The position numbers and the translations under genes are program-made. 64,000 nt of DNA from a virus (taxonomy: Duplodnaviria > Caudoviricetes): the IMG/VR virus record IMGVR_UViG_3300047292_000147, positions 6,378-70,377 of that record. One strand, 5' to 3'. Below the pieces are notes generated by a model. That model did no database searches, was not told the origin of the DNA, and worked only from the letters and a program-made list of their open reading frames with translations. Positions 8,201 to 55,362 of the stretch are shown piece after piece (position 1 is the first letter of the stretch; each line of letters starts with the position of its first letter).

Positions 8201-11200
8201 GTCCCAGTACTCGCCTCTGGGTGAGTTGTCTGCGTCGCTCAATGGGATGGTTCAGGCCATCATCGGTTTTGCTGTCACTGGAGAAGGCAACAACCTGACC
8301 CCCACTGCACAGAAGAACCTTGCTGCAGTGCTCAACGAGCTGGTCAGCACCTATGGTTTGGATGCTGCTGCATCCCTGAATCTGGTGATCAGAAACACTG
8401 CTGATGCTGCCTACCGTGCAGACAAGATGAAGCTGGAGACGCTGGCCGGTGTCGTGTCTGTGGATCAGTACACCTTGGAAGGCGGCAACTACGAAGTCAC
8501 TCCAAAAGATCGTGACGCCATCACCGCTCAACTTGCTGCTCTGAGCCCAGAGGTCAAGTTGGGTGTATTCGAGGCTGTGGATTCGTTGGTGACGCTGATG
8601 GGTGACACGCTCACCGTGCCTCAGGCTCGCCAGACAAAGACCAAAGGTGCCACTGAGTTTGGCAACCTGGGTGCGTCTTCCGTCCGACACGATGCAGATC
8701 TGGTCAGCGTCTTCGAGAAGCGCGGTCAGTTGAATGCCAAACAGTTGGTTCAAGTGCTGCGCAAGAAGTTTGCCGAGAACACTGTCAACCGGGAGATCCT
8801 GGAGAAGCTGGTTCCTCTTCTGAACGCTGGTTTGGTGGTGAAGTACATCACCCCCGACTCCACTTCGGCCGATGTGCTGGAGAAAGCCAAAGAACCTTCC
8901 CGTGGTTGGTTCGTGTCCAAGGATGGCCAGCAGGAGATCTACGTTCTGGGTACCCAGTTCAAGGACTCTGGCCTGACTCCCGAGCTGCTGTTGCACGAAA
9001 CCTTGCACGCTGTGCTGGCGCAGGTGATCAACGGTCCGAAGAGTGCGGATGCTCAGGCTCTGGTGGCCGAGCTCGAGACGCTGCTTGCCGAGGCCAAGGC
9101 CATCGTGGCAAGCGACGCGTCGTTGTCTGCCTTTGCGCCGGCCGTCACCAATGTGGATGAACTGGTGTCTTGGGGCCTGACCAACAAGAACTTTCAGGTC
9201 AAGGTGCTAAGCAAGGTCCGGATGCAGTCCCAGACCACTCAGAACCGTTTGGTTTCGGGCATAAAGGCATTCGTGGATGCGGTGGCTTCGTTGCTCTTCC
9301 GCCGTCCTGACAAAAACCAGAACCACGGTGTGTTCGTCTTGATGTCGAACGTCTCCGGTCTGTTGACTGAAGCTGCCAATTCCAAACCCGGCGTGGATGT
9401 GAACCTGAGCATGGCCAGCCAGGTCGAGCGGATCAACAGCTTTACGACCCTGCAGATCCACGAGGCATTGGATACAGGGGCCGTAGACCCCGCTTTCCAG
9501 TCTCAGCTGGCCAATCTCCTCACCGGCATCGTTGACGCGCTCCACGGCCCGTTTGGTGCGTTTGCGCAGGCATTGCGGGGGACCGAAGCCAAGACGCCTA
9601 TGGATGCGTGGGCCAAGGCCAAGGAACTGGGTGTCGCCCCGTTCGGTTCCAGCGTGCTGGCCCGGATGGGTGCAAGCGAGCAGGAAGCCTTTGTGATCGA
9701 GCAGGTGGAAGCGACGGTCAAGGCCGCTTTGGAAGGCAACAACGCACAGGCCAAGATCGCCTACCGCGAGCTCTACAACCTGTACACGGAGATGTACAAC
9801 AAGTTCAACAAGGACGGTTCCGACTTCTTCAAGGGTGATTGGGCTTTGGCCACTCCTTCGGAGAAGGCTCATGCCAAGAGCCAGTACGACTTCGTGTTTG
9901 AGCTAAAAAGCGACAACGGGAACCGTTCCGATTATCTGGCTCGGTTTGCTGCATTGGGTCTGGCCCATCAGGGTTTCAACCAGATGCTGCAAGTGGCGAC
10001 CGAGAGTGATGTTGGAAAGCTTCGTGGGAAAGAATCCTTTGAGCAACGTCTGCGCCGTTGGTTCTCCAACGTGCTGGGTATGTTCCGTCAGCGTGTGACC
10101 AAGACTTACGCCGGTCAGCTTGCGGATGTGAAGCTGCAGACCTTGGTTGGCCAGCTGGTAGACATCGAGGCCAAGAAGCGTTCTTTGATCCAAGCCAAGA
10201 AAGGGCTGATCAACACCGCCATGGTGGAAGACGGTGCACGGGAAGTCACCGAAGGGCTTCGTAAGACGATTGCCAAAGTTGCTGATTCGGATTTCATGCG
10301 CAACCAGAAGAACACTGCAGTGCAGGTGGTTCGCAGTGCGGTCAGCACCATCACCAACGATCGCACCGAGAAGTACATCGAGGGCATGCAGAAGTTCGTC
10401 GAACGCAATATGCAGGCTCAAGGCAGCGTGCTTGTCAGCGTTCTGAAGGAATTGACTGGGCACAAAGAAAAGCTGCAAGCAGCGTTCCGTGTAGTGAAGA
10501 AGTTCGAAGGCGATCGTCAGGATCAGATTGCTGGCTGGGCCAAAGATGCTCGCAAGGCATTTGGCAAGAAGCTGTCGAGAGAGAGCAGCGCCAGCATCAC
10601 TTCAGTGATCATGCGTACTGGCTTGCACTATCTGAGTAACACGATGTCAATGGCCGAGTTGGAGCGCTTGGTCGACAACCCGGTTGCTCAGAACCTGGCC
10701 ATTGCTGAACTGGAAGCCAAGCTGGGCCACATGAAAGCCGAGTACGTTACTCAGATTAAAGGACTGGGCTACTACAAGGCAACAGAGGAGGTGAAGGTTG
10801 AAGTGCTGATGATGAACTCGCACTTGATCTCCAAGCTGGCTGATACGGTTTATGAGAAGCAGATCAGCGATGCACAAGCCAAAGCAGCAGAACCGATCAT
10901 CAAACAGCTGGTGTCGCTCTACGCACTGAAGTACACCTCACGAACCGAGCAGGCTTTGGCCAAGCAGGTGTTCCGTGATGAGAACGCTCGTGGCGAGTCT
11001 GTTGGCAACGGCATCGACTTCGTGATGAAGACACAGAAGGCTCTGGAAGCAGAAGCCTTCGAGCGTCAGTTCAAGAACAACTCTGCATTGATGGTGCATG
11101 GCTTTACGCCTGAGATCGTGAACCCACACACCGAGTTTGATGTGCTAGACGAAGTAACCGGCAAAGAGCTGGAAGACTATGGCTACAAGAAAGGCGCTTC

Positions 11201-12974
11201 TGTTACCAAAGACAGCGTGGACCCTGACAAGAGCCGCAAGCACATCTACGTGCTCAAAGGCGCTGGCTTGGCTCCTCATGTGTCCGGTGCACTGCAGTTC
11301 CAGACAGATGCTGCCAAGGGCACAAAGATCAACAGCGGGTACACCAACGTCAACACCCAGGAAGGTCTTGAGAACGCACAGGTTCAGGCAGAGTTCAATC
11401 AGAAGCTTGGCTCGAAGATCGAAACAGATCCCAACTGGGATCCTTCGATGGAAACCAACAACTACACAGCGCCGCTCTACAACGAGAACGGCAAGGTTGT
11501 GAACTGGCGTTACCTGATGAATAAGCAGACCAAGGATGAGCTGCTTGAGCGCAACAACAGCTTTGATCGTGTGCTAGGTGTTCTGGGCGGTACGGTGTTC
11601 AGCAAGCCAAAGATCAAAGAGCAGAACCGTGCGGTGCTTGAAGCACTGAGGGAGATCTACAAGGACGACTACGCACTGAACGCAGAATCGTATGTCGAGA
11701 TTGGTCCTAACAGCAGCGACCCAGAGCTTCGTAGCTTTTGGGATCGTTTGCCTGAGCAGACCAAACAAGACGTTCGTGATGTCTGGGGCAGAGACAACCT
11801 CAAGGTGACGGCCGACAGCCTGGATCTGGTGTTTGGTTACCGCAAGCGTTCACTGGCTGAACCTTTCCGCCAAAAGCAGAAAAACATAGCCAAGCTGGAA
11901 GCAGGTGGTGCATTGTCTGAGGCTGACAAGCAAGGGCTGATTGCTCAGAACTTTGTGGCATCGGTTGAGTGGGCTCTGACAACCTTTGCTCGAGTAAAGC
12001 TTGGCAAGCCACAAGACGAAGCAGAGCGCTACGCCAAACGAGCTGCGGCTTACATGACTCGCAGTGAGCGTGCATGGCAAGAAGTGGTGCGCGAGATCAA
12101 GACGATCTACGTCATCAAGAACGTCTCAACCATGGTAGGCAACAACCTCAGCAACATCTCTCAGCTCTTGGCTTCGGGTGTGTCTTTGAAGTCTATCCGT
12201 GAGCATCTGCCTGTGGCCATGAAAGGTGTTACGGCATACATGGCTGATACCGAAGAGCTGCGTGAATTAGAGAACCAGCTGGCGACGGGCTACACCCAAG
12301 GCAACGACGCAGAAATTGAACGCAAGATTGTTCGTCTGCGTGATGCCATCGCACGCAACCCTGCACGGGAGATGATCGAAGCTGGCTTGATGCCGTCTAT
12401 CGTGGAAGACATCGGGGAAGCGGATGATCCGTTCTCGTACAAGACGGAGCTGGCCAAGAAAACGGAGCGCTTCACCGACAAGCTGAACCCGAAGGTCAAG
12501 GAAGCGGCAAAGTTTGTGTACATGACCCGAGACGGCAAGCTGTACAAAGCATTGCACCAGGCCACACAGGTCAGTGACTTCGTGGCTCGATACGTCATGT
12601 ACCAACACCGCATCAGCCGAGAGCAGAACCCTCTGAGCAAAGCAGCTGCGATCCAGGAAGTGTCTGAAGCGTTCGTGAACTACGACATTGCGATGCACCG
12701 GAACATTCAGTTCATGGACGACATGGGCTTCTTCAACTTCACGAAGTATTTCCTGCGGATGCAGAAGGTGCTGTTGAAGATGGGTCGTGAGAATCCTGCA
12801 AGAGTGTTGGCTTTGGCAGCAGCAGATTCGTACCTGAACTTGGGATCCATCGTTCTGGATAGCTCAGCTTTGGCCAAGATAGGCAACAACCCATTTGGTA
12901 TTGGTGCTCTTGGCTTCCCAGGTGCACTGGATGACCTGGCTACGGTGAAGGCAGCAATGGCCTTGGTGAAGTAA
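2208..12974 (+). CDS. Virion-encapsidated RNA polymerase (N4 gp50-like, 3588 aa)
   Basis: Size; single-subunit RNAP motifs A (GEIDGKTNG), B (RDFTKNPLTTLMFGS) and C (NNHDAL); no Cys seen in the translation; N4 synteny. Confidence 0.95.
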   Translation: MAEFDLNSYFSKRQQLFGQDKVDALQKASAEKVQALQESRARDQAYLNSPQAQIDRAVAEGRTWGEFGQDVGLSAIQGVDALAKLPAMVYDKATEGNFYGTETQRISAMSDEREKLKSAFAQANNKQKADAAKAAGEAAKEYFGDGALGTGAQVAAEFGTAFWEAAKDPGSIPEFLAQQAAQLGVMGKVGRASELAAKAAVKAAPVLAATKAGQAAVNRVGTAGAVGTGAVLQGTDVGSDTMTRLMELPQAVWDQNPQYKVRAAEIGADAAKQEIASRLASEATVQGAATSLLSAALPGGSSVEKALVGKSLGGFKAVPKAFVGESGQEGIEEGTGKFFGNAGVKQIDPTQSLSEDVGAAAGQGAYMGGLLGAGISGVQTAGNAAAIAAAERAAKVQEEVAKKQDLSAAIASGDVSAYLDPKSPSFAPEKAVQGLFGNSQKEDTTPEAKQTNFVKAESIVADLKSEREKLQLELDWTNPDKLQARLDAGRDGFSPELIAATEETIATLRTTPADPNEIAALEAKAKSMDRKIQLSETILKDFNREGQNQQVDVEAEVAKLKDADPVVSQGAADNIINLSMKSPELVDRKLAASLVNDTTNNLTDSQRDYLRAFSEARVAENTLKTMGDVSKEIFFGSAKDKQGIKYTGLAEYRANVAVTLAAGNQKSADRELALLTNFETSHQAKAKAASEAYAAFLKDGIERRVVRNKDGSWKVEQGLFESPAARVENGGLDIKENSPKIVAETKTEADAISKTAVELKAAYAVKFGSGNTGGASNVQNVPQALEGIQSAETQLRPEASTQDGAAEGVATTGGGAAADVQADATAGTDAVAPASKKTNSLEFARSLDKQLSDRLTPISRAQKDGKISLEDARARFQEEKTKLIAENAEALVAAAFEGIAPRTLAVAKSFAKDGNAAMAAAQALGEVGIASRLYPENDALVQQLVLARLAQETPAAAPTTQEAPSSAASTVKAKTDQAQLQSTEQATTSTEAVVPVPEAVAEAVESQGLTALQQKSPEGKSYVERNLLADHLKQTGKRPLVMVKNFVTALKQQTAKVMDYLDVKEPTDKQKAAVQLLARKVAEWGPVIKGSLVKGYWNNTEKKAKDATEYRYADLMQFLIEGTNKDGLDLEENIKTAIVYAAMRATVDAADSNTFNSPEDINAMFGRSDEAEVSETEQRILANVGVRDNNWRNRAGQAAVQALGLKAADENTPIDLLPRLESAFGAYIQKLLMDRGIMVRETLSRKEMEELFPVNPADPSSKVPPSWQFMKLARDAEGNPVPAAQQIIEGLQGTGNVLDKLFDVETLVRFPVLQAAEFKDKSQKGVNEGIPENLLEAVNQKQQEAGYLREDSWAVLSALPEKAFLMMHGWVDLENTTVHAMDMLSVQAKNEGIVREYNRIKQFVSEVIQPAATEADTELGAVPFYAEMFVAKQQRVFQKTNGFNQQTSKMHRNVYRKGSWSLDIKLSDEAAMNNFKLRVLEALGTKTDAQTNDRTLDQFDAAFDPEMQSSTKGKEKAAALRDAVKTLQKIIYEGTTLSDAEVDALVNGVAKGGEKGLTLAALQDMAHYMQAMETGTETFPVQFQGEIDGKTNGVIISQLLFGGAESLEDMQNRMRRGGLFFEGDQDSQFNSWKQEGNLDQYESLAKRLNEIAQLTLASDPEVYAAIEGFTKPLSTADGQVAKEGRDFTKNPLTTLMFGSTLYSAVDKMGDKLIAQISKRIVDVVDGKTPSTMKEVLQDLNTLITRGGGKPINVNMTNAQAMSSELSSDQTAAIKRAFHNSLGDAAKQAFEEEFGTYLQQRSIADEAANLTFALSNAVISGMRVDYVSKLIADEVMPVNPTTGQPLRALTKQEEREFQKQVSKLIPRVHTAGSKKDGKQSSGIGLFKTKQTLSTNPVYQGKASFGTPFADTVGKTGRQGQSIESFSAKLNSNEVVQEEPGISTSSKQVHSFDSTVARGAETLLAAQGIETDNNHDALTSGLNGFNKVGQALNQSFYSELSQYSPLGELSASLNGMVQAIIGFAVTGEGNNLTPTAQKNLAAVLNELVSTYGLDAAASLNLVIRNTADAAYRADKMKLETLAGVVSVDQYTLEGGNYEVTPKDRDAITAQLAALSPEVKLGVFEAVDSLVTLMGDTLTVPQARQTKTKGATEFGNLGASSVRHDADLVSVFEKRGQLNAKQLVQVLRKKFAENTVNREILEKLVPLLNAGLVVKYITPDSTSADVLEKAKEPSRGWFVSKDGQQEIYVLGTQFKDSGLTPELLLHETLHAVLAQVINGPKSADAQALVAELETLLAEAKAIVASDASLSAFAPAVTNVDELVSWGLTNKNFQVKVLSKVRMQSQTTQNRLVSGIKAFVDAVASLLFRRPDKNQNHGVFVLMSNVSGLLTEAANSKPGVDVNLSMASQVERINSFTTLQIHEALDTGAVDPAFQSQLANLLTGIVDALHGPFGAFAQALRGTEAKTPMDAWAKAKELGVAPFGSSVLARMGASEQEAFVIEQVEATVKAALEGNNAQAKIAYRELYNLYTEMYNKFNKDGSDFFKGDWALATPSEKAHAKSQYDFVFELKSDNGNRSDYLARFAALGLAHQGFNQMLQVATESDVGKLRGKESFEQRLRRWFSNVLGMFRQRVTKTYAGQLADVKLQTLVGQLVDIEAKKRSLIQAKKGLINTAMVEDGAREVTEGLRKTIAKVADSDFMRNQKNTAVQVVRSAVSTITNDRTEKYIEGMQKFVERNMQAQGSVLVSVLKELTGHKEKLQAAFRVVKKFEGDRQDQIAGWAKDARKAFGKKLSRESSASITSVIMRTGLHYLSNTMSMAELERLVDNPVAQNLAIAELEAKLGHMKAEYVTQIKGLGYYKATEEVKVEVLMMNSHLISKLADTVYEKQISDAQAKAAEPIIKQLVSLYALKYTSRTEQALAKQVFRDENARGESVGNGIDFVMKTQKALEAEAFERQFKNNSALMVHGFTPEIVNPHTEFDVLDEVTGKELEDYGYKKGASVTKDSVDPDKSRKHIYVLKGAGLAPHVSGALQFQTDAAKGTKINSGYTNVNTQEGLENAQVQAEFNQKLGSKIETDPNWDPSMETNNYTAPLYNENGKVVNWRYLMNKQTKDELLERNNSFDRVLGVLGGTVFSKPKIKEQNRAVLEALREIYKDDYALNAESYVEIGPNSSDPELRSFWDRLPEQTKQDVRDVWGRDNLKVTADSLDLVFGYRKRSLAEPFRQKQKNIAKLEAGGALSEADKQGLIAQNFVASVEWALTTFARVKLGKPQDEAERYAKRAAAYMTRSERAWQEVVREIKTIYVIKNVSTMVGNNLSNISQLLASGVSLKSIREHLPVAMKGVTAYMADTEELRELENQLATGYTQGNDAEIERKIVRLRDAIARNPAREMIEAGLMPSIVEDIGEADDPFSYKTELAKKTERFTDKLNPKVKEAAKFVYMTRDGKLYKALHQATQVSDFVARYVMYQHRISREQNPLSKAAAIQEVSEAFVNYDIAMHRNIQFMDDMGFFNFTKYFLRMQKVLLKMGRENPARVLALAAADSYLNLGSIVLDSSALAKIGNNPFGIGALGFPGALDDLATVKAAMALVK

Positions 12975-39862: not shown

Positions 39863-39864
39863 GA

Positions 39865-40128
39865 ATAGTACAAAGCTGGTTCGATAGTACAAAGCAAAGA
39901 AAAAGGGCCTGAGTCGTTAGACCCAAGCCCTTGAATTTACTACCTTTTTTGGCGCGCCCGGCAGGATTCGAACCCACGACCCCTTGGTTCGTAGCCAGCT
40001 GGTCCCGGAGCCAGATTCATCCAAGAAATCAAGACCTTGGGTTGGCCAAGCTGTACTACCCAAGGGACTTAGGCTTAGGAGGTAAGTCATTGATTTTTTG
40101 GAAGGTCTCTTCTGGCGATAGTACAAGC
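39865..40128. mobile_element. attP site (core, arm-type repeats, IHF sites)
   Basis: Core 39950-39997 is the 3' 48 nt of a tRNA-Arg(ACG) on the minus strand (TGGCTACGAACC...GGTTCGAATCC...CGCCA) with no 5' half. TAGTACA repeats flank it, and WATCAANNNNTTR matches at 40027-40039 (+) and 40083-40095 (-). Confidence 0.85.
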
Positions 40129-40132
40129 CAAG

Positions 40133-40375
40133 CTACCTTCGGGCGATCCAGCCGACAGGCTCTTCCTCACCCGTCTGCAGCTTCTTGAACTCAGCATCAG
40201 CCAAGGCACGATCCTGGAAGCAGAAGCGTTTGCCCCAGCCGTACAGGTTCAGGTCCATGTAGATGGCCTTGGTGAAAAGCAAGTTGCCTATGCCAACCAG
40301 GGTGCCGTCATCCAGTGCACGGACATCCAGGTAGTCACCCAGAGCCTTGATCTCTTCGAGCAGCTTGTCAGTCAC
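40133..40375 (-). CDS. Small conserved phage protein
   Basis: ATG start, operon-coupled downstream of the integrase. Confidence 0.55.
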   Translation of the reverse strand: MTDKLLEEIKALGDYLDVRALDDGTLVGIGNLLFTKAIYMDLNLYGWGKRFCFQDRALADAEFKKLQTGEEEPVGWIARR

Positions 40376-40515
40376 CGCATGGCCCTCAGCTTAAGCATGT
40401 AGCCCTCAGTGTAGACCTTGGCCCAGTCTTCCAGCTTGTTGAAAGCCAGAGCCAAGGGAAGGTACTGCATCAGCTCTTTGAGATTGGCATCAACTCTTTG
40501 GACTTGTTGGTTCAT
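40372..40515 (-). CDS. 47-aa hypothetical protein (MNQQVQRVDANLKELMQYLP...)
   Basis: Read manually; GGAG Shine-Dalgarno; stop overlaps the next start. Confidence 0.45.
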   Translation of the reverse strand: MNQQVQRVDANLKELMQYLPLALAFNKLEDWAKVYTEGYMLKLRAMR

Positions 40516-40516
40516 G

Positions 40517-40843
40517 TCAGTCTCCTTTGGCTTTGTATTCTTTGATGAGTCGATTCATCCACTTGAGTCGGTGTTTTTGCACACGCTCTGTTGTTAGTTC
40601 TGTTCCGGGTATGCCGGCTCCATATTGAAGCCAAACATTCAAGTTGTTCCAAGGAAACAATCGAGCCTCAATGACATCACGGCATCTTTGGTGCATGTTC
40701 AGAACATATTGTTTTTGTTGATTTTTTGCTGCATACAGAATGGCATAGCAGATGTACTCGGACTTATCACAGTCAAGTTCATAATCGTCTTTGCCATCCC
40801 ATAGGTATTTTTTGCCTTTGGCAATCAGTTCTGATGTTTTCAC
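40517..40843 (-). CDS. Hypothetical protein
   Basis: AGGA Shine-Dalgarno; follows the integrase. Confidence 0.55.
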   Translation of the reverse strand: MKTSELIAKGKKYLWDGKDDYELDCDKSEYICYAILYAAKNQQKQYVLNMHQRCRDVIEARLFPWNNLNVWLQYGAGIPGTELTTERVQKHRLKWMNRLIKEYKAKGD

Positions 40844-40849
40844 ATGTTC

Positions 40850-41938
40850 CTATCTGAGGGGCTTTACCACCTCTGCTTTGCGTCTGTAGATCCGATCGGT
40901 GGTTCTGCTATCCGCATGAGCCAACAGCGATCGAGCGTGTTCAAGTGTTCCAGCGTCACTGGCTACCTTGGCTCTCAAGTCATGTTCGGTGAAGTGATTC
41001 TCCACTTTGGTTTCCTTGATCACCCGTTCCATGTAGCGTTGCCACATTGATTTCCAGCCAGGTGCTTTGCCTGTCTCATCATTGATGTAGCACTGTCCTT
41101 CACGATTGCAGAACAGAAAGATCGATGGAAACGATCGAGATTGCTTGGCCATTGCGACAGCAGCACGCAGCTCAGGAGTCCATTGATAGATGGTCCTCTT
41201 GCCGGTAGTGGCTGCAGTCTTGTGGCGTTGATTGTGGATGCCGTCTTCTTTGAGTTGGTTCTCTTGAAGGCGAAGCAAGTCACCTTGCGACATGCCAGTC
41301 AGCAGCTTTAATCTCAGGTAAGCCTGGATCATCAGCACGCTGCCTTTCTTTCTCTTTGAATCCAGAGAAAGCGCTTCAACGATTTCCCAATCTTCAACGT
41401 AGCGATCTCTCGGAGTTTCTCCCTTCAGACGCACTTCGTTCTTGAATGGATGGCGATCGATGTATCCCCATTCCACGGCTTTGGTGTAGGCATGGGACAG
41501 CAGCTCGATTTCACGATGAGCCGCAATGCGACCACCCGTCACCTTGCCTGTCTTGGGATCTTTCTTTTTTACACTCCTGCGATCCACATACTGGTAGACC
41601 AGCTGAGGAGCAAAAAGAAGAAGGGGTTGGTTACCAAACACCCGGCGAAGCACGACCATCTGAACGAGATTGCTTTGCTGGCTTGCTGCAGCTTTGGCAG
41701 GGATAACTTCGAGTGCATAGCGATCGAGTAGCTCACCAACCGTTTTTGCTTGAGTTGGTTTTTGAAGCCGATCCGACCAGACTTTGTAGGCTTCATTGAG
41801 TTTCTCTCCCAGACGGAATGTTTTCTTGCCTTCCCACAGGTGCTCAAGACCAGGCGGAACCTGGTAGTAGTAGGCACCGTGAGTATGTCTCCAGCGAGCC
41901 GGAAGACCTTGATTCTCTTTGCTGCGCTTGCGAGCCAT
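40850..41938 (-). CDS. int: Tyrosine recombinase (phage integrase, 362 aa)
   Basis: N-terminal arm-binding-like region; HKT, HDLR and LLAH..RTTDRIY motifs; the first catalytic Arg position reads TGMS; coupled to an excisionase and near an att core. Confidence 0.9.
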   Translation of the reverse strand: MARKRSKENQGLPARWRHTHGAYYYQVPPGLEHLWEGKKTFRLGEKLNEAYKVWSDRLQKPTQAKTVGELLDRYALEVIPAKAAASQQSNLVQMVVLRRVFGNQPLLLFAPQLVYQYVDRRSVKKKDPKTGKVTGGRIAAHREIELLSHAYTKAVEWGYIDRHPFKNEVRLKGETPRDRYVEDWEIVEALSLDSKRKKGSVLMIQAYLRLKLLTGMSQGDLLRLQENQLKEDGIHNQRHKTAATTGKRTIYQWTPELRAAVAMAKQSRSFPSIFLFCNREGQCYINDETGKAPGWKSMWQRYMERVIKETKVENHFTEHDLRAKVASDAGTLEHARSLLAHADSRTTDRIYRRKAEVVKPLR

Positions 41939-42159
41939 TACATTGCTTCCCAGTTAGGTTCAGCGTGTTTGGTTTGCTTCTTGGTTTCAGTGGAGCCATC
42001 AAACACCTTGGTGATGTGAGCACGCAGTATTGCGACGCTTCCATCTGGCCGTACACGGTGTTCGATGCCCATGGCTTTCAAGACCCTGACCTGTGCAGTG
42101 CGTACCTTGCGTTGGGTCAGAGCTTGGATTTCTTCAAAACTCAGAAAGGTGTCAGTCAC
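41938..42159 (-). CDS. xis: Excisionase-like winged HTH (DUF4224 type)
   Basis: FLSFEEIQALT.RK...QVRVLKAMGI.HRVRPDGSV pattern; TAATG-coupled to int. Confidence 0.75.
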   Translation of the reverse strand: MTDTFLSFEEIQALTQRKVRTAQVRVLKAMGIEHRVRPDGSVAILRAHITKVFDGSTETKKQTKHAEPNWEAM

Positions 42160-42472
42160 AGCCGATGTCTGCGTGTTTGTCGATCATGTAGTCAGCCCAA
42201 GCATCAGCCATCTGCTGCTCGACTTCATTGGTGTTGTCGTAGATCCGCTCGTCGATGTCTGAACCATCAAACAAGTTGGTAACGTCAACTCCTTTGTAGA
42301 AGCATTGAGCGCCTTCTGCAACAAGCCATTCATCAGGAGAGTCACTACCTTCAACGGAAAAGTAGACGGTGAAGTCTTCAATACCGCCCATGTTGAGACT
42401 CAGGCTGTACGGATGCTTGGTGGCTGCTTCAGATTCTTCAGTCAGGTTGTGGGGAAGGGTAGGTGCGTTCAT
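42152..42472 (-). CDS. Acidic hypothetical protein
   Basis: Operon-coupled. Confidence 0.5.
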   Translation of the reverse strand: MNAPTLPHNLTEESEAATKHPYSLSLNMGGIEDFTVYFSVEGSDSPDEWLVAEGAQCFYKGVDVTNLFDGSDIDERIYDNTNEVEQQMADAWADYMIDKHADIGCD

Positions 42473-42987: not shown

Positions 42988-43007
42988 GGGATTCTTTCTG
43001 TAGAAAT

Positions 43008-43031
43008 AAAAAAGCCCTCCGAAGAGGGCTT
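43008..43031 (-). terminator. UUCG-loop terminator
   Basis: AAGCCCTC-TTCG-GAGGGCTT followed by TTTT on the minus strand. Confidence 0.85.
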
Positions 43032-43049: not shown

Positions 43050-43409
43050 TCAACCCATTCGAAGGATCTCGACACCGGCATCAGTGCTGTTGGTAACGTA
43101 TGTCTCTTTGCCCCATTCACGACTGAGAGTCGAGCACACACCGGCACGAATATCGTCCGCTGGATACTTTCCAAAAGGAACAACTTGCACTGAACCAATG
43201 TTAGCATTGAAGTCGATAAACGGCCGGTAATAAGAAGAAAGCTCCCCGTAGGGATACTTGCGGGGAGCACGCTGTCGTTCTTGCTTGACAGCAACCTCTA
43301 AGCCGTTGCTTATGGTTTCGCCTTGTTCGGTAACGATGGCGTATTGAACACCAGAAGCCACAAGTAACTTGATGGCTTTGTTCAATGCGATAACTTGTAC
43401 CTCAGTCAT
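43050..43409 (-). CDS. Hypothetical protein
   Basis: ATGA overlap with the DNA polymerase stop. Confidence 0.6.
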   Translation of the reverse strand: MTEVQVIALNKAIKLLVASGVQYAIVTEQGETISNGLEVAVKQERQRAPRKYPYGELSSYYRPFIDFNANIGSVQVVPFGKYPADDIRAGVCSTLSREWGKETYVTNSTDAGVEILRMG

Positions 43410-46033
43410 GATGATTCTTTCTTGGAGCACAACTCCATAATGGTTTTTTGATCTGCGTTATTGGGCAGGGTGATTGCATGAGCCCAGTCGGGATAGAAGA
43501 TGTCCAAGGCAGCACCCAGCTTCACAGTCGGGTGTTGGATCTCAGGCAGCTCTTGCCACTGCATGGACTTGATTAGCTCACGATTGGCAAACTCGACTAC
43601 CTCCACATCGTTGCGGATGAGGATGTAGATTGCGTCGTGAATCAGAGCTACTGGTTTGATGTCGTAGCGGTATTTCGATGCCCAGACTTTGCGCATGAAG
43701 TCCACTGCAGCACGGTTGTTGAGCAAGCCATAGGATTGACCCAGAGCATTGCCGGCAGTCCTGCCTTCAGCCGAAGCTTCGTAGGGCATGCCACGGGTGC
43801 CATAGATCACCTGCTTGAGCAGAGGAGTCCTGACACGCAGTCCAAAAGCCACTTCCACATAGCCGTCCATTGAGGCCTGCTTCAGGCGCTCTTGAACGTA
43901 GGCATCTGACACCTGGTAGAGATCGTGGTATCCCTTCTCGATGGCTTTGGATTTCTCCTCGGACCAACCCAGGTTGCTCATCATCCCGTGGTAGGTACCG
44001 CCGTAGGTGAGCAGGAAGGTTGGAGCTTTGGAGTCCTGACGCAGCTCTGGATACTTCTTCTTGATTGTGTTGACCGAAGAAGGATCGTCAAGATCGATCT
44101 CGGGACACTGATCACGGAAGTAATAGGCTGCACGCAGTGAGTGGCCGTCGAAGCCACGCTCATAAACCGCAAGCTTGTTGGGATCCTTGGTGGTCAGTGC
44201 AGAGATGTAGTCTTCAAGCGAGTTGAAGTCTGCACCTGCAAATAGCCAACCAGGTGGAGCCTGGAAGCATGTCTTGATCACCTTGCCGAAGTCAGACCCA
44301 GCAGGCAGGTTCTGCATGTTGGGATCACTCGAGCTTAGTCGGCCGGAGACCGTACCACCCAGATTGAAGCTGCCATGCAGGTATCGCATGCCGTCTTCTT
44401 TGAGGATGCCTCGCTCGAAAGCAGGGATGAACGTAGAGAGGATTTTCGTGACCTTGCCGTAGCCGATCAGCGCATTGAGTAGCTCCTTGTAGGCAGGCTC
44501 CTCAGTGTGGTTGATCAGCTTCTCGATCGTCTCGGCACCAGTGGCAGGTTGCTTGGTGTCGGTGAGATCGAGCACTGGCAAGCCCATCAGCTCATAGAGC
44601 AAACGCTGCAGCTGAGGACCAGAGTTCGGATTGAACTCCATGTCTTCGAATGCAGCCTTGTTCTTGGGCAGGATCTTCCCAGGGTTCTTGGCTTTGGCTT
44701 TCCGGTCTTCGTAGTCTTTATTCCAGGCAGTCTCCTGAAGCAGCAGTTCCAGCATTTTGATGACGCCGCTGGTTTTGATCTTTGTGAGGTGGGACTGCTG
44801 CTCTTCATGGAGCGCATGCTTCACTTCTACGATCTTGCTGTCGTTCATGGGCATGCCACTCAACTCGATCTGCATGATCAGCTTTAGGCTTGGCAGCATC
44901 AGCGATCGGTACAGGTCCAGCTGGTTGTCTCTGACCATCACAGGCCAGAATTTCTCTTTGACGTAGTGAGTGGACAGGGCATCGACCAAGTTGTACTCGA
45001 GCAGCTCCTTCAGAGGAATCTTGCGGATGTCTTTGATGTCGTCCTTGGCCCAGTTGCCTGCGAACTCATGAGCCAGTGGCTTCAATCCCAGCACGTTGCC
45101 GGCAGTGGAATTGGTGGCCAGGTAGGCGATGATCTTGGTGTCATTCATCCTGGCGGCCATGATGTCCAGACCTTCCAACAGACCCACGGTGTCCAGTAGG
45201 TCAGTCATCCACAGTGCATGGATGATGGCTTTCACATCGTAGGGTGCGTTGTGGAAAGTCAGCTCACCTTTGTAGTCCATGAAGAACTGCAGCAGTACTG
45301 CACGCACCTCACGGTTTGTACCTTGCCAACCGTAAAAGCCATCAGCAGGCCGTAGTGCATAGGTCTTGTAATCGCACGCAAAGGCAATGCCGTTGTGCTT
45401 GTCCCATGCAAAGGCAATGGTGCCGATCCCCGCCTCATTGAAAGCTAGCGAGAAGCCCTCGATGTCACAGGTGAGGTCTGGGTACTGATGCAGCGATTGA
45501 AGGGCTGCAGCGATCTCTGTGACCGTCTCAGGGTACTGAGCCGAGTGAATGATGTTGGAACCAATGGCTTGGTAGTTGCCAGCCACACCTGAAGCCAGGG
45601 TGTATAGACTCAGGTCTAGCTTGGCTTGCAGCTGCGGGTTGTAGATCAGCTGCTGGTAGTTCAGACCCAGCACAACGGACATGTGCTCGTAGCCCTTGAT
45701 CTTGCAAGGGAGCACATAGCCGAAGTGAGGGTCTGCCTTACCTTGACCTGTGAGGGTCTTGAAGTAGTTTGCGTCTGCAACATACAGATGCTTGACACCC
45801 AGGCTGTCCAAGGCAGGCAAGAGCTTGCTCAGATAGTCCTTGATGAACTGAGCTGGCGCTTTGCCTTCCGAGTTGTAGTCCAGGGTGAAAGCAATCATCT
45901 CTTCTTCAGCGATGCCACGTTTGATCAGAGGATCAACGTAATTGATTCGGAGCTCGTGCTTGCTGAAAGAAGTGCCTTTCGACAGAAGAGCAATGCTGTA
46001 AGTGTTGGCTTCTTTGAAGATGATGTGACGCAT
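43406..46033 (-). CDS. Family A DNA polymerase (N4 gp39-like)
   Basis: ExoI CDIEG, ExoIII YNLVDA, TVSGRLSSSDPNMQNLP, motif A GADFNSLE, motif B RQDSKAPTFLLTYGG, motif C IHDAIY. Confidence 0.95.
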   Translation of the reverse strand: MRHIIFKEANTYSIALLSKGTSFSKHELRINYVDPLIKRGIAEEEMIAFTLDYNSEGKAPAQFIKDYLSKLLPALDSLGVKHLYVADANYFKTLTGQGKADPHFGYVLPCKIKGYEHMSVVLGLNYQQLIYNPQLQAKLDLSLYTLASGVAGNYQAIGSNIIHSAQYPETVTEIAAALQSLHQYPDLTCDIEGFSLAFNEAGIGTIAFAWDKHNGIAFACDYKTYALRPADGFYGWQGTNREVRAVLLQFFMDYKGELTFHNAPYDVKAIIHALWMTDLLDTVGLLEGLDIMAARMNDTKIIAYLATNSTAGNVLGLKPLAHEFAGNWAKDDIKDIRKIPLKELLEYNLVDALSTHYVKEKFWPVMVRDNQLDLYRSLMLPSLKLIMQIELSGMPMNDSKIVEVKHALHEEQQSHLTKIKTSGVIKMLELLLQETAWNKDYEDRKAKAKNPGKILPKNKAAFEDMEFNPNSGPQLQRLLYELMGLPVLDLTDTKQPATGAETIEKLINHTEEPAYKELLNALIGYGKVTKILSTFIPAFERGILKEDGMRYLHGSFNLGGTVSGRLSSSDPNMQNLPAGSDFGKVIKTCFQAPPGWLFAGADFNSLEDYISALTTKDPNKLAVYERGFDGHSLRAAYYFRDQCPEIDLDDPSSVNTIKKKYPELRQDSKAPTFLLTYGGTYHGMMSNLGWSEEKSKAIEKGYHDLYQVSDAYVQERLKQASMDGYVEVAFGLRVRTPLLKQVIYGTRGMPYEASAEGRTAGNALGQSYGLLNNRAAVDFMRKVWASKYRYDIKPVALIHDAIYILIRNDVEVVEFANRELIKSMQWQELPEIQHPTVKLGAALDIFYPDWAHAITLPNNADQKTIMELCSKKESS

Positions 46034-52349: not shown

Positions 52350-53594
52350 TCAGCAGAGTCCGTATGCAGACTCCCTGATCTTGTCACCCAGGGTCTGGGA
52401 CAACTTCGGGAACATCCCTGGCTTGCCATGGAGTTGGCTCAAGATGTCGTCCAGAAGGTAGCTATCAGCCAGGTCAGCCAGGATCTCCTTGTACTGATAC
52501 CGAACCCAATTGATGTTGTTGGGGTGTGCTTTGAACTCGTCATGGATGGTGACGATCTCAAAGGGTTGGTACTGGAGCATGCCGTTGATGATCTTGGCCA
52601 AGTGCTCGAGGTGCTCTTGGCTCAGCTTCTGCAGGTTCTCTGGGGTCAGATGAGGCATGATCACGACATCCGGGACAGTACTTCTCTCGTACTGCTGGAC
52701 GTAGTAGCCGGCCTTGCCATAGGGCATAGAGACTTCTCTCTTGGCTCCCATGATGCGTTCCAGCATCTCGATCTCAATCCATGCTGCTGCTTGTTCTGCG
52801 ATCTCCCGATCGTAGTTGCAGCGACGGTGCATGCTCCTCAGCACGTAAGCATCGACACTGTGAGTGACGTTGGCTGCATTGCTGAGCCCTGACTTCGAGC
52901 CCTGGTTCTCGTAGAACTCGTAGCTGAAGGTGGCATGGTTTAGCTCATCGACCTCGATGCGTGCCTCGACCTTCTTCATGACCTTTATGCGAGCATCGAA
53001 GCCGTCAGGCATCACCCAGGCATGCTGCAAGGCATAGGGTTGCCAGCTGGCCAACAAGTCTTGCAGCAGCTCCCATGCACCTGGTGCGATGATTTGAGCA
53101 GCCTCGTAGAACGCAGCCAGCTCAGGAGTCTCGTCACCGAAGAGGTTCTTTGGCTCGGCCTTGGAACCGTAGAAACTGGTCATCAGGGCTTGCTTGGCAT
53201 CCTTGCGGTCTACGACCAGGTTGCCACCCAAGATGCCGTTCATCACCTCTGTGCAGGTGGTATAGGCATCGGCTCGAACATTGGGGTCAACCAAGCCTGT
53301 AGCCGTGGCACCAGCTTCGCAGCCAGTCAGGACAGACATCATCTGAATGCCTGAGCAGGTGCCATCCACACCAACCAGATGGCCAGTAGGAATGCCTTGC
53401 TGTGCTTTGCGGATGGCTTGAACAGCCTTGATGTACAGAGGCTTGGTTTCTGCCAGTGAAGCAAGGTGCTCCAGATCAAGCATGTGACAGTCGGTCCAGT
53501 GAATACGTTCTTCGAACGTCACCTTGTCCATACCGTACTGGGTAGCAGCATCAATGAGAAGCCACTGATACCCGGTGTAATGATTCATTGCCAT
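52350..53594 (-). CDS. N4 RNA polymerase II subunit 2 (gp16-like)
   Basis: WLLIDAATQYGMDK, VGVDGTCSGIQ, RKDAKQALMTSFYGS, IHDEF. Confidence 0.9.
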   Translation of the reverse strand: MAMNHYTGYQWLLIDAATQYGMDKVTFEERIHWTDCHMLDLEHLASLAETKPLYIKAVQAIRKAQQGIPTGHLVGVDGTCSGIQMMSVLTGCEAGATATGLVDPNVRADAYTTCTEVMNGILGGNLVVDRKDAKQALMTSFYGSKAEPKNLFGDETPELAAFYEAAQIIAPGAWELLQDLLASWQPYALQHAWVMPDGFDARIKVMKKVEARIEVDELNHATFSYEFYENQGSKSGLSNAANVTHSVDAYVLRSMHRRCNYDREIAEQAAAWIEIEMLERIMGAKREVSMPYGKAGYYVQQYERSTVPDVVIMPHLTPENLQKLSQEHLEHLAKIINGMLQYQPFEIVTIHDEFKAHPNNINWVRYQYKEILADLADSYLLDDILSQLHGKPGMFPKLSQTLGDKIRESAYGLC

Positions 53595-53613
53595 TTGTGG
53601 CTCCTTTGATTGG

Positions 53614-53841
53614 TTAGGTTAGAAGAAGGGCAAGAGCACGAAGCTCTTTGGGAACGTCGTCAACAATCACCGGAGTGAGATCATTGCAACGCCACCAAGT
53701 TTTCGTCATAAAAGGGCTGTAGATGTACGCACCGTCGTAGATCTCTTGCCCAAACTGGGCTTTGATGTCCTTCGATGTCAAATTTCGGCCGTTAAGTGAG
53801 GCCACCAACTGGGTGCCATAGAACAGGTGAACGATGCTCAT
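53614..53841 (-). CDS. Small hypothetical protein
   Basis: Ends VPKELRALALLLT; overlap-coupled. Confidence 0.55.
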   Translation of the reverse strand: MSIVHLFYGTQLVASLNGRNLTSKDIKAQFGQEIYDGAYIYSPFMTKTWWRCNDLTPVIVDDVPKELRALALLLT

Positions 53842-54053
53842 GGGACATCCAGTACCAGCAGATGAGCCCTGAATGCAGTGGGGAACTTGTTCAAAGACAA
53901 GTCTTTGAGCATGCCTCCTGCGATCATCCCGAAGTCTGGTGAGTTGCAATCTTCACCAAGATCAAGGCAGTAGTAGCCTTGGTATTTGGAGAAGTCGATC
54001 TCGTTGGCTTCCACGAAGGTGCCCATTCGATACAGGTAGTACCGTGATTTCAT
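53838..54053 (-). CDS. Small hypothetical protein
   Basis: Ends FPTAFRAHLLVLDVP; overlap-coupled to RNAP1. Confidence 0.55.
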   Translation of the reverse strand: MKSRYYLYRMGTFVEANEIDFSKYQGYYCLDLGEDCNSPDFGMIAGGMLKDLSLNKFPTAFRAHLLVLDVP

Positions 54054-54955
54054 GGGACACCTGTGACAAGTTCTTCGTTGGCCAGCTCGATCTGGGCTTT
54101 CTTGAAGGCAGTGCCCTGAGTGGTGATGTGATAGCCCATGGCATAGATCCGGCCACGTTTATCCACCTTGTGAGTGAGATAGAACTTGTTGCCTTGCTGT
54201 GCCATGAGGCTGTAGAACTCATAGCTCTGCCGCTTGAAGGCATTCCACTGATCGGTCTGATCCTGGTCTTTGAGCTCGAAAGTAGGATCTTCTTCAACAG
54301 TGCTGAGGAAATCTGTATCGAGCTTCAATGCTACCTTGTTCATCAGGTTCAGGACATCTAGGCAGATGTCTCCGTCATGATGGTTGCCGGTGCCAAGGAT
54401 CAAAGAATCATTGTGAGTCAGGTAGCCTGAGCTGTAGTTGTGGGTTAACTCCAGTGGTTCACACACCATGGGTGGCAGGTACTGAGAGTTCTCGATGAAG
54501 CTGATGAGGATCTCAGGAAGAGGTATTCGAGAAACCACCATCAGACTGGCCATCTTGTCCTCTTTGCTGATGTCGAAGGCATCGGTCAAGCAGAGCACTG
54601 CCAGTAACTCAGCCACCGTGGTGATGGCTTCTGTCCTGTCAGAGAACTGCAGTCGTGATGCAACCTGTGCTGATACTGAGGTAAACAGTTCAGGCTTCTG
54701 CGAGTAGGCAATACCCACAAAGATGTCCATGACCAAGGCCTGAACATCCAGGTTCTCCAGCTGGGCAATCCTTTTCATCTTGGATTCGTAGTACTGGCCA
54801 GCCTTGTACTTCTCGACCAGCTCGACACCATGCTTGAGCTTGGCTTGCATCTCAGGATGATCTTTTATAGCTGTCCTGATCTTGGCGTCAATGTGCTTGC
54901 GGTTGTATCTCTGTTCGTTCATTTCCTGGAGAACGATCTGTCTCATGGTTTCCAT
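54050..54955 (-). CDS. N4 RNA polymerase II subunit 1 (gp15-like)
   Basis: YLPPMVCEP, FYLTHKVDKRGRIY..GYHITTQGT.FKKA; GGAG Shine-Dalgarno before the ATG at 54955. Confidence 0.9.
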   Translation of the reverse strand: METMRQIVLQEMNEQRYNRKHIDAKIRTAIKDHPEMQAKLKHGVELVEKYKAGQYYESKMKRIAQLENLDVQALVMDIFVGIAYSQKPELFTSVSAQVASRLQFSDRTEAITTVAELLAVLCLTDAFDISKEDKMASLMVVSRIPLPEILISFIENSQYLPPMVCEPLELTHNYSSGYLTHNDSLILGTGNHHDGDICLDVLNLMNKVALKLDTDFLSTVEEDPTFELKDQDQTDQWNAFKRQSYEFYSLMAQQGNKFYLTHKVDKRGRIYAMGYHITTQGTAFKKAQIELANEELVTGVP

Positions 54956-54987
54956 TGGTTTCTCCATGTCCTGGCAACAGCGCCAGC

Positions 54988-55002
54988 CCATGGCCGGAGG
55001 CC
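54988..55002 (-). promoter_or_regulatory. Candidate vRNAP hairpin promoter upstream of RNAP1
   Basis: Template (+) strand CCAT-GGCC-GGA-GGCC. Confidence 0.6.
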
Positions 55003-55043
55003 GAGACCTGAGGGATGACTGTCTTTGCTGCGGTCTACGTGTG

Positions 55044-55080
55044 AAAAAAACAACCACCACTCCCGAAGGAGCAGTGGTTT
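55044..55080 (-). terminator. UUCG-loop terminator
   Basis: ACCACTGCTCC-TTCG-GGAGTGGTGGT followed by a T run on the minus strand. Confidence 0.75.
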
Positions 55081-55089
55081 TGGAGCGGA

Positions 55090-55362
55090 TCACTCCAGGG
55101 CGAAGCCCGAGGTATCAGCAGGAAGGGCCGACTGGTACTCGATCTCCAGCTTGGCAAGGATCTGAGCAGCGCGGCTCGGATCTTCGTTCAGCCAGGCGAG
55201 CAGTGCCTTCTCGTTGCCTTTGCTCTCTTTGAGAGGGATAGCACCGAGCTTCTTACGGCCGCCGTTCTTGGCAGGCAGGTAGAAGTTGAGGAAGCCCTGA
55301 GCCTTCCAGTTCTCGTTGGAAGGGGTAGCAGCAGCGTTGGTAACAGCGTTTTGAAAGGCCAT
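55090..55362 (-). CDS. Early protein, possible distant N4 gp2-like ssDNA-binding RNAP II activator
   Basis: KAQGFLNF..LGAIPL resembles the N4 gp2 motif as I recall it; early-region position upstream of RNAP1; GGAG Shine-Dalgarno. Confidence 0.45.
   Translation of the reverse strand: MAFQNAVTNAAATPSNENWKAQGFLNFYLPAKNGGRKKLGAIPLKESKGNEKALLAWLNEDPSRAAQILAKLEIEYQSALPADTSGFALE

What the first reader, a model, noticed from the sequence alone, without database searches (positions are those of the whole stretch)
39865..42159. Temperate N4-like phage: integrase, excisionase and tRNA-Arg attP
Seen: a coupled xis-int pair and, about 850 bp downstream, 48 bp matching the 3' part of a tRNA-Arg(ACG) from the anticodon stem through CCA. 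Phage genes lie on both sides, so this is attP of a non-integrated genome. Established: characterised N4-like phages are almost all strictly lytic and depend on an injected vRNAP for early transcription, and tyrosine integrases often target tRNA 3' ends. Inference: this lineage lysogenises a Burkholderiales-like host. That poses a puzzle: an induced prophage has no injected vRNAP, so it needs another way to start early transcription.
Basis: partly seen in the sequence, partly recalled or inferred. Interest (0 to 1): 0.85.

Follow-up and report, generated by a model that had tools for sequence, protein, structure and literature searches.

The report
Integration cassette in N4-like phage
A freshwater phage of the N4 type, a group long treated as purely lytic, carries a well-kept set of genes and DNA sites for inserting itself into a host arginine-tRNA gene, but such integrase-bearing N4-like phages were already reported in 2023 and no inserted copy of this lineage was found.

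Summary
The coupled xis (41938-42159) and int (40850-41938) genes are real. So is the 48-nt 3' part of tRNA-Arg(ACG), at 39950-39997 on the minus strand, two bases from where I first placed it. All lie in a 70.4-kb non-integrated N4-like genome with a 3588-aa virion RNA polymerase.

The site is a complete lambda-style attP: arm-type repeats, IHF-like motifs, a core starting at the anticodon loop, and a terminator.

At least 25 related N4-like contigs from many metagenomes carry the same cassette.
- Their integrases form one clade and diverge in step with the DNA polymerase.
- int and xis are under strong purifying selection (dN/dS 0.06-0.13).
- Arm repeats co-vary within each phage.
- Core alleles match host tRNA alleles: this phage's 48-mer is in 133/190 Nitrosomonadaceae-family genomes and 0/241 Polynucleobacter genomes, while a sister phage's allele is in 195/241 Polynucleobacter.

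A 39-kb element in Nitrosospira sp. Nsp11, with a 65%-identical integrase, is flanked by exactly this 48-mer.

Caveats:
- No integrated N4-like copy of this lineage was found.
- No repressor was recognised.
- The integrase lacks the canonical first arginine, a clade-wide trait.

Integrase-bearing N4-like phages were reported by Zheng et al. 2023, and this scan has noted the same kind on other DNA. I file it as a new member of a known kind.

The parts
41938..42159 (-). xis-like gene (73 aa, DUF4224), translationally coupled to int
   Evidence: PF13986 2.3e-14 and phrog_1266 excisionase 4.2e-12. It sits directly upstream of int in 54 of 66 bacterial homologous loci. dN/dS is 0.08-0.13.
40850..41938 (-). 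tyrosine integrase (362 aa) with a lambda-like N-terminal arm-binding region; residues K240, H319, R322, H341, Y351 present, S217 at the Arg-I position, R238 two residues before K240
   Evidence: phrog_1 1.5e-25 and PF00589 26.7 bits. BLASTP to lambda Int aligns from residue 1 and puts S217 opposite R212. The family alignment is, the clade motif counts. dN/dS is 0.06-0.09.
40133..40843 (-). three small ORFs (108, 47 and 80 aa) between int and attP, function unknown
   Evidence: Only PHROGs of unknown function match. Their number and content vary among relatives, from 0 to 6 ORFs. They are absent from the bacterial int loci.
40116..40127 (-). P-arm arm-type site (CTTGTACTATCG), direct copy
   Evidence: The same position holds each relative's own arm word.
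40083..40095 (-). IHF-consensus-like motif AATCAATGACTTA (H1)
   Evidence: It matches WATCAANNNNTTR. It is conserved in all 13 aligned attP regions and in the P arm of the integrated Nitrosospira element.
40050..40058 (+). inverted copy of the arm word (TAGTACAGC)
   Evidence: An inverted copy of each phage's own word lies at this place in most of the 13 attP regions; it is only approximate in L118, L069 and L071.
40027..40039 (+). second IHF-consensus-like motif AATCAAGACCTTG (H2)
   Evidence: The TTGATT part is conserved in most relatives.
39950..39997 (-). attP core: 48 nt identical to the 3' part of tRNA-Arg(ACG); the anticodon loop CTACGAA (39988-39994) is the presumed crossover region
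   Evidence: The 48-mer is in 133/190 genomes of the Nitrosospira family and in 0/241 Polynucleobacter genomes. It is duplicated 39,457 bp apart around an integrated element in Nitrosospira sp. Nsp11.
39903..39932 (-). hairpin plus T-run (13-bp stem), a terminator for the regenerated tRNA
   Evidence: The same element follows the core in the relatives and follows the tRNA in the bacterial integrated elements.
39863..39893 (-). P'-arm: two tandem arm-type sites (TTTGTACTATCG, then TTTGTACTATTC)
   Evidence: Relatives have tandem pairs of their own word here.
2208..12974 (+). virion RNA polymerase (3588 aa), the N4-like hallmark
   Evidence: phrog_2206 E=0, 1666.7 bits, full length. Homologous ORFs of 3461-3581 aa occur in the int-bearing relatives.
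43406..46033 (-). family A DNA polymerase of N4-like type
   Evidence: 53-56% identical to Schitoviridae phages phCDa, Littlefix, Pylas and FSL SP-058.
52350..55093 (-). two-subunit N4-like RNA polymerase II genes (52350-53594 and 54050-55093)
   Evidence: phrog_2051 1.3e-144 and phrog_2166 'N4-like RNA polymerase' 9.1e-104.

Best explanation
This is a working-type lambda-style integration module on an N4-like (Schitoviridae) genome. Inferred mechanism: Int binds the four arm-type words through its N-terminal domain and binds the anticodon stem-loop core through its core-binding and catalytic domains. IHF-like bending sites help assemble the complex. Int then exchanges strands within the anticodon loop of the host tRNA-Arg(ACG) gene. 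The 48 phage nucleotides plus the phage terminator rebuild an intact tRNA at one junction. xis-int-(small ORFs)-P arm-core ends up at the other junction. The DUF4224 protein acts as the excision directionality factor. The most likely hosts carry exactly this tRNA allele, for example Nitrosomonadaceae. Shown here: the sequence features, their conservation, their co-variation and their host matching. Inferred: recombination activity, stable lysogeny and every regulatory step.
For: 1. The attP has the same layout as integrated betaproteobacterial elements: tRNA 3' end, hairpin, then tandem arm words. Each element has its own word.
2. In 13 N4-like relatives the direct, inverted and tandem arm words co-vary, and the IHF-like motifs stay constant.
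3. Core alleles track host tRNA alleles. The window's 48-mer is in 133/190 genomes of the Nitrosospira family (one of them, G408, unpublished) and in 0/241 Polynucleobacter genomes. The L074/L075/L120 allele is in 195/241 Polynucleobacter genomes.
4. Nitrosospira sp. Nsp11 holds a 39.4-kb element flanked by this exact 48-mer. Its Int is 65% identical and its P arm resembles the window's.
5. The 25 N4-lineage Ints form one clade with SH-like support 97.
6. Int and PolA pairwise identities correlate at r=0.93, Mantel 0/5000.
7. dN/dS is 0.06-0.09 for int and 0.08-0.13 for xis, against 0.12-0.13 for PolA.
8. K240, H319, R322, H341 and Y351 are present.
9. Relatives L068 and L197 keep only the anticodon stem-loop core but carry a whole tRNA-Arg(ACG) gene beside attP. 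That fits crossover in the anticodon loop and selection to keep the tRNA functional.
Against: 1. No integrated N4-like copy of this lineage was found.
- The vRNAP query hit 0/241 Polynucleobacter, 0/190 Nitrosomonadaceae-family and 0/401 sampled Burkholderiales genomes. The positive control worked.
- None of 66 bacterial int loci has N4 genes within 10 kb.
- The 120 closest Int clusters lie on contigs of at most 74,076 b.
2. The canonical first catalytic arginine is replaced: S217 aligns with lambda R212 and with the R of TGARWG in 5c6k.
3. No CI/Cro-like repressor was recognised among the ORFs screened, which were not all ORFs.
4. int lies on the P-arm side and points the same way as the tRNA piece. 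In all bacterial homologues it is convergent and lies on the P' side.
Confidence: 0.72

Rival explanations
1. Integration without stable lysogeny. The module works, but integration is transient or rare, alongside an essentially lytic cycle, as in the integrase-bearing T7-like pelagiphages. In that case prophages are practically never seen in host genomes.
For: No integrated copy was found in any genome or long contig searched. No repressor was recognised. HTVC019P-type pelagiphages integrate into tRNA genes, yet no SAR11 genome carries such a prophage (bioRxiv 10.1101/410191).
Against: Strong purifying selection on both int and xis and renewal of core alleles to match different hosts imply repeated productive integration and excision cycles. 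An excision factor is of little use without a resident prophage.
Confidence: 0.18
2. The integrase is catalytically dead or repurposed because it lacks Arg-I. On this reading the cassette is a relic or serves as a DNA-binding or regulatory device.
For: S217 sits at the Arg-I position. The PF00589 score is just below the curated cut-off. One close relative (L205) has lost int altogether.
Against: The substitution is clade-wide. 108 of the 120 closest clusters read TG[ML][AS]QGD, and 113 of 120 keep xRHK with an arginine two residues before the catalytic lysine. Bacterial homologues without the canonical arginine sit integrated next to tRNA-Arg (L002, L005, L006, L051). dN/dS is 0.06-0.09. IntDOT offers a precedent: its missing first arginine is functionally replaced by a downstream arginine (PMC8138268, citing Kim et al. 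2010).
Confidence: 0.07
3. The 48-nt piece is the decayed remnant of a phage-encoded tRNA-Arg gene and not an attachment site.
For: N4-like phages carry tRNA genes; this one has tRNA-Asn and tRNA-Tyr. Two relatives carry a whole tRNA-Arg(ACG) gene at this locus. The piece persists in the int-deleted L205.
Against: Identity starts at the anticodon loop in every relative. Arm words and IHF-like motifs flank it. The piece matches host alleles exactly and differs from the relatives' own whole tRNA genes in the T arm and anticodon stem. The same 48-mer bounds an integrated element in Nitrosospira.
Confidence: 0.03

Closest known systems
Integrase-bearing N4-like UViGs and integrated N4-like proviruses (Zheng et al. 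2023, mSystems 8:e00197-23, PMC10654107)
   Same: N4-like backbone with lysogeny hallmark genes, mined from IMG/VR, freshwater included. The integrase tends to be clade-specific.
   Different: That paper does not mention att sites, excisionase, tRNA targets or betaproteobacterial hosts: none of six such terms occurs in its text. Its integrated examples are mostly Moraxella. For this lineage no integrated copy was found.
Phage lambda Int / Xis / attP (heterobivalent tyrosine integrase with arm-type sites and IHF)
   Same: The N-terminal arm-binding region aligns from residue 1. Arm-type words lie on both sides of the core, there are IHF-consensus motifs, and a small coupled directionality factor sits upstream of int.
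   Different: Only 23% identity. The core lies in a tRNA gene. Arg-I is absent at the canonical place. Xis is a DUF4224 protein. In lambda, int lies beside one arm of attP, whereas here it lies on the P-arm side 853 bp away.
tRNA-Arg/tRNA-Ser-targeting prophages and islands of Betaproteobacteria, and Xanthomonas phage PBR31 (Int 59.8% identical)
   Same: Same Int-Xis family at 47-69% identity. Same layout after the tRNA. The Nitrosospira sp. Nsp11 element uses the identical 48-nt core.
   Different: These are about 40-kb non-N4 elements. Their int is convergent with the tRNA and lies about 100 bp from it. Many have the canonical TG[LM]RRGD arginine.
HTVC019P-type T7-like pelagiphages (bioRxiv 10.1101/410191)
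   Same: A 'lytic-type' podovirus lineage with its own RNA polymerase, carrying a tyrosine integrase that targets tRNA genes. No prophages are seen in host genomes.
   Different: A different virus family. Integration there was shown by PCR and sequencing. Here it is inferred only.
IntDOT of CTnDOT (Arg-I replaced by serine)
   Same: The first catalytic arginine is missing at its usual place, and another arginine is conserved elsewhere (PMC8138268).
   Different: A different subgroup and host phylum. That the substitute arginine here is R238 is my inference from co-variation. The exact IntDOT residue numbers I recall only from memory.

Membership tests
N4-like phages (Schitoviridae) | Giant virion-packaged RNA polymerase (about 3,500 aa) | tested here: met
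   The 3588-aa ORF at 2208-12974 matches phrog_2206 'virion RNA polymerase' at E=0, 1666.7 bits.
N4-like phages (Schitoviridae) | Two-subunit phage RNAP II and an N4-type replication module | tested here: met
   phrog_2166 and phrog_2051 match. PolA is 53-56% identical to Schitoviridae. Primase, SSB and helicase PHROGs match.
N4-like phages (Schitoviridae) | Hairpin early promoters read by vRNAP | not tested
   Proposed in a first-stage note (e1-5925438). I did not examine it.
Lambda-type heterobivalent tyrosine integrase | Catalytic Tyr, Lys, His-x-x-Arg and His | tested here: met
   K240, H319, R322, H341 and Y351 are conserved across 28 aligned homologues.
Lambda-type heterobivalent tyrosine integrase | First catalytic arginine (TGxR box) | tested here: not met
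   S217 aligns with lambda R212 and with the R of TGARWG in 5c6k. The change is clade-wide, with a conserved R238 two residues before K240.
Lambda-type heterobivalent tyrosine integrase | N-terminal arm-binding domain and arm-type sites in attP | tested here: met
   BLASTP aligns residues 1-58 with the lambda Int N-terminus. Four arm words co-vary across 13 phages.
Lambda-type heterobivalent tyrosine integrase | Site-specific recombination activity | not testable with these tools
   Needs an attP x attB assay.
tRNA-gene attachment site (identity block from the anticodon loop to CCA) | attP identical to the 3' part of a host tRNA gene, so that the gene is rebuilt on integration | tested here: met
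   48/48 identity to Nitrosospira tRNA-Arg(ACG). The 48-mer is in 133/190 genomes of that family. The left limit of identity lies at the anticodon loop in all relatives.
Temperate phage | Integrated copies flanked by attL/attR in host genomes | tested here: inconclusive
   None found for this lineage. The genomes searched are samples, and the short-read contigs break at the core. A non-N4 relative is integrated at the identical core.
Temperate phage | Repressor or other maintenance function | tested here: inconclusive
   No CI/Cro-type family hit among about 45 ORFs screened. Not all ORFs were screened, and many have no family. An H-NS-like protein is encoded.
DUF4224 excisionase-like directionality factor | Family match and coupling to int | tested here: met
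   PF13986 scores 53.5 bits against a cut-off of 22. The gene is coupled upstream of int here and in 54 of 66 bacterial loci. Excision activity is not testable here.

The most novel reading that the evidence does not exclude
This lineage keeps its prophage silent without a classical repressor. The early hairpin promoters can be read only by the vRNAP that comes in with the virion, so an integrated copy would be off by default. The lineage-specific H-NS-like protein would damp leaky host transcription of the late genes, vRNAP included. Induction would then have to start from host-polymerase transcription of the vRNAP or RNAP II genes. Such phages may lysogenise ammonia-oxidising Nitrosomonadaceae.
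Probability: 0.12. Interest if true: 0.8.

Novelty: new member of a known kind. Interest (0 to 1): 0.5.

Why it matters
N4-like phages are used as 'safe', strictly lytic therapy and biocontrol agents, and they are a model for virion-delivered transcription. This work shows a large freshwater clade that has kept a selected integration cassette. That confirms and sharpens the 2023 report that the family is not uniformly lytic.

It also gives concrete, testable parts: attP at 39860-40130, a candidate attB allele that 133 of 190 Nitrosomonadaceae-family genomes carry, and the residues S217, R238 and Y351.

It offers a system for asking how a vRNAP-dependent cascade is silenced and restarted. The candidate hosts include ammonia oxidisers, for which few phages, and to my knowledge hardly any temperate ones, are characterised. 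That last point rests on my own knowledge and was not checked here.

Tried and rejected
- **Reads.** I laid four public runs on 37000-44000. All are Logan contigs that break inside the 48-nt core, so attL/attR cannot be resolved. The loose ends at 39948-39997 belong to short contigs of community tRNA genes that do not reach phage-specific sequence. This is no evidence either way. It did show a roughly 92% relative with the same core-int-xis-PolA order in another study (X5).
- **attL-type pattern in IMG/VR.** An exact pattern of tRNA 5' side, core and phage P' motif gave 0 hits.
- **vRNAP fragment against genomes.** 0 hits in 241 Polynucleobacter, 190 Nitrosomonadaceae-family and 401 sampled Burkholderiales genomes. 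It found its relatives in the control.
- **Contig L119 (7.6 kb).** It looked like a possible attR junction, but its downstream genes are phage genes, with a lysozyme.
- **PDB sequence search.** Only a weak integrase hit (5c6k), used just for the Arg-I column.
- **Kim et al. 2010 on IntDOT.** The paper is not held.
- **Sigma-70 promoter scan of 39000-43600.** One weak site, fewer than in shuffles. No promoter for int could be named.
- **Structure prediction.** Not run, because the tools return no coordinates and the R238 geometry could not have been measured.
Full report
**What is there.** The window is bases 6378-70377 of a 70,377-b IMG/VR virus record, classed linear and 96% complete by CheckV. 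It is an N4-like (Schitoviridae) genome.
- A 3588-aa ORF at 2208-12974 matches the PHROG 'virion RNA polymerase' over its full length (1666.7 bits).
- The two RNAP II subunit genes, an ATPase, helicase, primase and SSB match N4-type PHROGs.
- The family A DNA polymerase (43406-46033) is 53-56% identical to those of cultured Schitoviridae.

At the end of the minus-strand replication block lie xis (41938-42159; DUF4224, phrog_1266 excisionase) and int (40850-41938; phrog_1 integrase 1.5e-25; PF00589 26.7 bits, cut-off 27.1), sharing one base. Three small ORFs of unknown function follow. Then comes a 240-bp intergenic region. In it, 39950-39997 on the minus strand is 48/48 identical to the 3' part of a tRNA-Arg(ACG) gene, from just before the anticodon loop to CCA. 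A 13-bp-stem terminator follows at 39903-39932. ARAGORN calls no whole tRNA there.

**The site is a full attP, not just a tRNA scrap.** I aligned the region with bacterial loci that encode Int homologues. They share one layout after the tRNA 3' end: a hairpin with a T-run, then two tandem copies of a 9-12-nt word. Each element has its own word (TTGTACTAT here; elsewhere TTGTCCTAT, TTGTGCTAT, TTGTGCAAT, CTGTATCAT, TTGGGTCAT). In the window the word occurs twice in tandem at 39863-39893, once more as a direct copy at 40116-40127 on the other side of the core, and once inverted at 40050-40058. Two IHF-consensus motifs lie between them, at 40083-40095 and 40027-40039. In 13 N4-like relatives these four positions carry that phage's own word (the inverted copy is only approximate in L118, L069 and L071), while the IHF-like motifs stay constant. 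Co-variation of this kind is what co-evolution with an arm-binding domain predicts. BLASTP aligns the Int N-terminus with that of lambda Int from residue 1.

**A whole clade carries it, by descent.**
- Int relatives at 71-94% identity lie on contigs of about 70-74 kb from many metagenomes. The gene order is always PolA, Nmad5-like gene, xis, int, 0-6 small ORFs, attP, lysis genes. Their records hold vRNAP genes of 3461-3581 aa.
- The 25 N4-lineage Ints form one clade (SH-like support 97) apart from 158 bacterial and other viral homologues.
- Int and PolA pairwise identities correlate at r=0.93 (Mantel 0/5000).
- PolA relatives at or below 69% identity have no int homologue within 6 kb.
- Against relatives L202 and L200, dN/dS is 0.06/0.09 for int and 0.08/0.13 for xis, against 0.12/0.13 for PolA.

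The cassette was thus acquired once, from the pool of betaproteobacterial prophages and islands. The closest bacterial Ints are 60-69% identical, in Nitrosospira, Gallionellaceae, Polynucleobacter, Paraburkholderia and Massilia. It has been kept under selection since.

**The core follows the hosts.** Four core alleles occur in the clade.
- The window's 48-mer is present, nearly always once per genome, in 133 of 190 genomes of the family of Nitrosospira sp. Nsp11. One of these, G408, is unpublished; without it the count is 132 of 189. The same 48-mer is in none of 241 Polynucleobacter genomes.
- The allele of L074, L075 and L120 is in 195 of 241 Polynucleobacter genomes.

A decaying relic would not track host alleles. 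Repeated integration and excision would.

Nitrosospira sp. Nsp11 carries the window's 48-mer twice, 39,457 bp apart. One copy is inside the intact tRNA next to a 65%-identical int. The other is a 3' fragment preceded by a P arm much like the window's (AAATCAATGACTTA, TAGTACAG, TTGATTT). That is a non-N4 element of this Int family integrated at the identical core.

**Where the crossover is.** The left limit of identity to the tRNA is the anticodon loop in all relatives. Two relatives, L068 and L197, keep only 15-16 nt, the anticodon stem-loop. They carry a complete tRNA-Arg(ACG) gene directly after the P' arm words. I read this as a second way to keep the host supplied with this tRNA after an insertion that would otherwise break it. 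This is inference.

**Points against.**
1. No integrated copy of this lineage was found.
   - None of the 66 bacterial int loci has N4 genes nearby.
   - The vRNAP query found nothing in 832 Burkholderiales genomes.
   - The 120 closest Int clusters lie on contigs of at most 74,076 b.
   - An attL pattern found nothing in IMG/VR.
   - Public contigs break at the core.

   The T7-like pelagiphages show that proven integrators can be absent from host genomes, so this weakens the case but does not refute it.
2. Int lacks the canonical first arginine. S217 aligns with lambda R212 and with the R of TGARWG in 5c6k. A first-stage note pointed me to this. It is not a private defect: 108 of the 120 closest clusters read TG[ML][AS]QGD, and 113 keep an arginine two residues before the catalytic lysine. 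The bacterial clade with the canonical arginine has proline-containing xPxKT there instead. Homologues without the canonical arginine sit integrated at tRNA-Arg. IntDOT is a precedent for a relocated first arginine (PMC8138268).
3. No CI/Cro-type regulator was recognised.
4. int lies on the P-arm side, co-directional with the tRNA piece, unlike in all bacterial homologues. This is a lineage-specific rearrangement that puts int in the replication operon's orientation.

**Loss happens.** L205, the closest relative by PolA (88%), has a 1.9-kb deletion from int codon 9 to the anticodon loop. The junction lies in a GAA(T/C)CAAGG microhomology. xis, the 3' tRNA piece, the terminator and the P' words remain. 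A tRNA scrap alone is therefore not proof of function. In the window, however, every part is intact.

**Comparison with what is known.** Zheng et al. 2023 (PMC10654107) mined IMG/VR and reported 54 N4-like genomes with lysogeny hallmark genes and 40 integrated N4-like proviruses, mostly in Moraxella. Their text mentions none of att sites, excisionases or betaproteobacterial hosts. This scan has also noted integrase-attP cassettes in N4-like phages on other DNA. One first-stage note describes a tRNA-Arg(ACG) attP with 'aattgcag' repeats. That is the arm word of L069, L071 and L118, so it is the same lineage. Follow-up agents on other lineages reported integrated relatives; I did not check those.

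The finding is therefore a new, well-documented member of a known kind. The details added here are the attP anatomy, host-allele tracking, the clade-wide relocated arginine, the two attP designs, and the candidate Nitrosomonadaceae hosts.

**The puzzle.** How a prophage that depends on injected vRNAP would be silenced and restarted cannot be settled from sequence. One speculative reading is that dependence on vRNAP itself keeps the prophage off. An H-NS-like gene (13082-13519) is present in 3 of 4 int-bearing relatives checked and in no GenBank N4-like phage. It may contribute. This is untested.

Noticed in passing
L068:11881-12054 and L197:12648-12822: Two int-bearing relatives have an attP core of only 15-16 nt (the anticodon stem-loop). 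A complete tRNA-Arg(ACG) gene lies immediately after their P' arm words. This may be an alternative way to compensate for disrupting the host tRNA on integration.
   Followed up: partly
L205:10540-10760 (corresponds to window 41906-39991 deleted): The closest relative by PolA (88%) is a natural int deletion. 1.9 kb is lost between int codon 9 and the anticodon loop of the core, at a GAA(T/C)CAAGG microhomology. xis, the 3' tRNA piece, the terminator and the P' words remain.
   Followed up: yes
window 13082-13519 (-): An H-NS-like protein (PF00816 C-terminal domain, 2.9e-10). Homologues occur in 3 of 4 int-bearing relatives checked (40-73% identity). No GenBank N4-like phage has one; the 10 phage hits are to EBPR podovirus 1, Acinetobacter and Ralstonia phages.
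   Followed up: partly
window 43012-43031 (-): A strong terminator-like hairpin (8-bp GC-rich stem plus T-run) lies between orf126 and the Nmad5-like gene. The block Nmad5-like, orf106, xis, int, small ORFs and attP therefore sits between two minus-strand terminators and may be a separate transcription unit. The listed start of ORF 42469-43053 is probably too early; the likely start is the ATG near 42986.
   Followed up: no
window 40850-41938, residues 214-240: There is co-variation inside the Int family. Members with TG[LM]RRGD (canonical Arg-I) have xPxKT before the catalytic lysine. Members with A, S or G at that position have (Q/L/K)RHKT. The N4 clade additionally has Q in place of the neighbouring R.
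   Followed up: yes
G002:C34:61842-101346 (Nitrosospira sp. Nsp11): A roughly 39.4-kb integrated element is bounded by 48-nt direct repeats identical to the window's attP core. Its Int is 65% identical to the window's.
   Followed up: partly
window 24003-39149 (+): A plus-strand block of tail-fibre-like (1269 and 1682 aa) and lysis genes interrupts the minus-strand replication genes. attP lies where this block and the PolA-int block converge.
   Followed up: no
L197:8592-9032, L202:4505-4939: Several relatives have an oppositely oriented DUF5856 gene (144-146 aa) just upstream of xis. That position is typical of a maintenance or repressor gene. The window has no counterpart.
   Followed up: no
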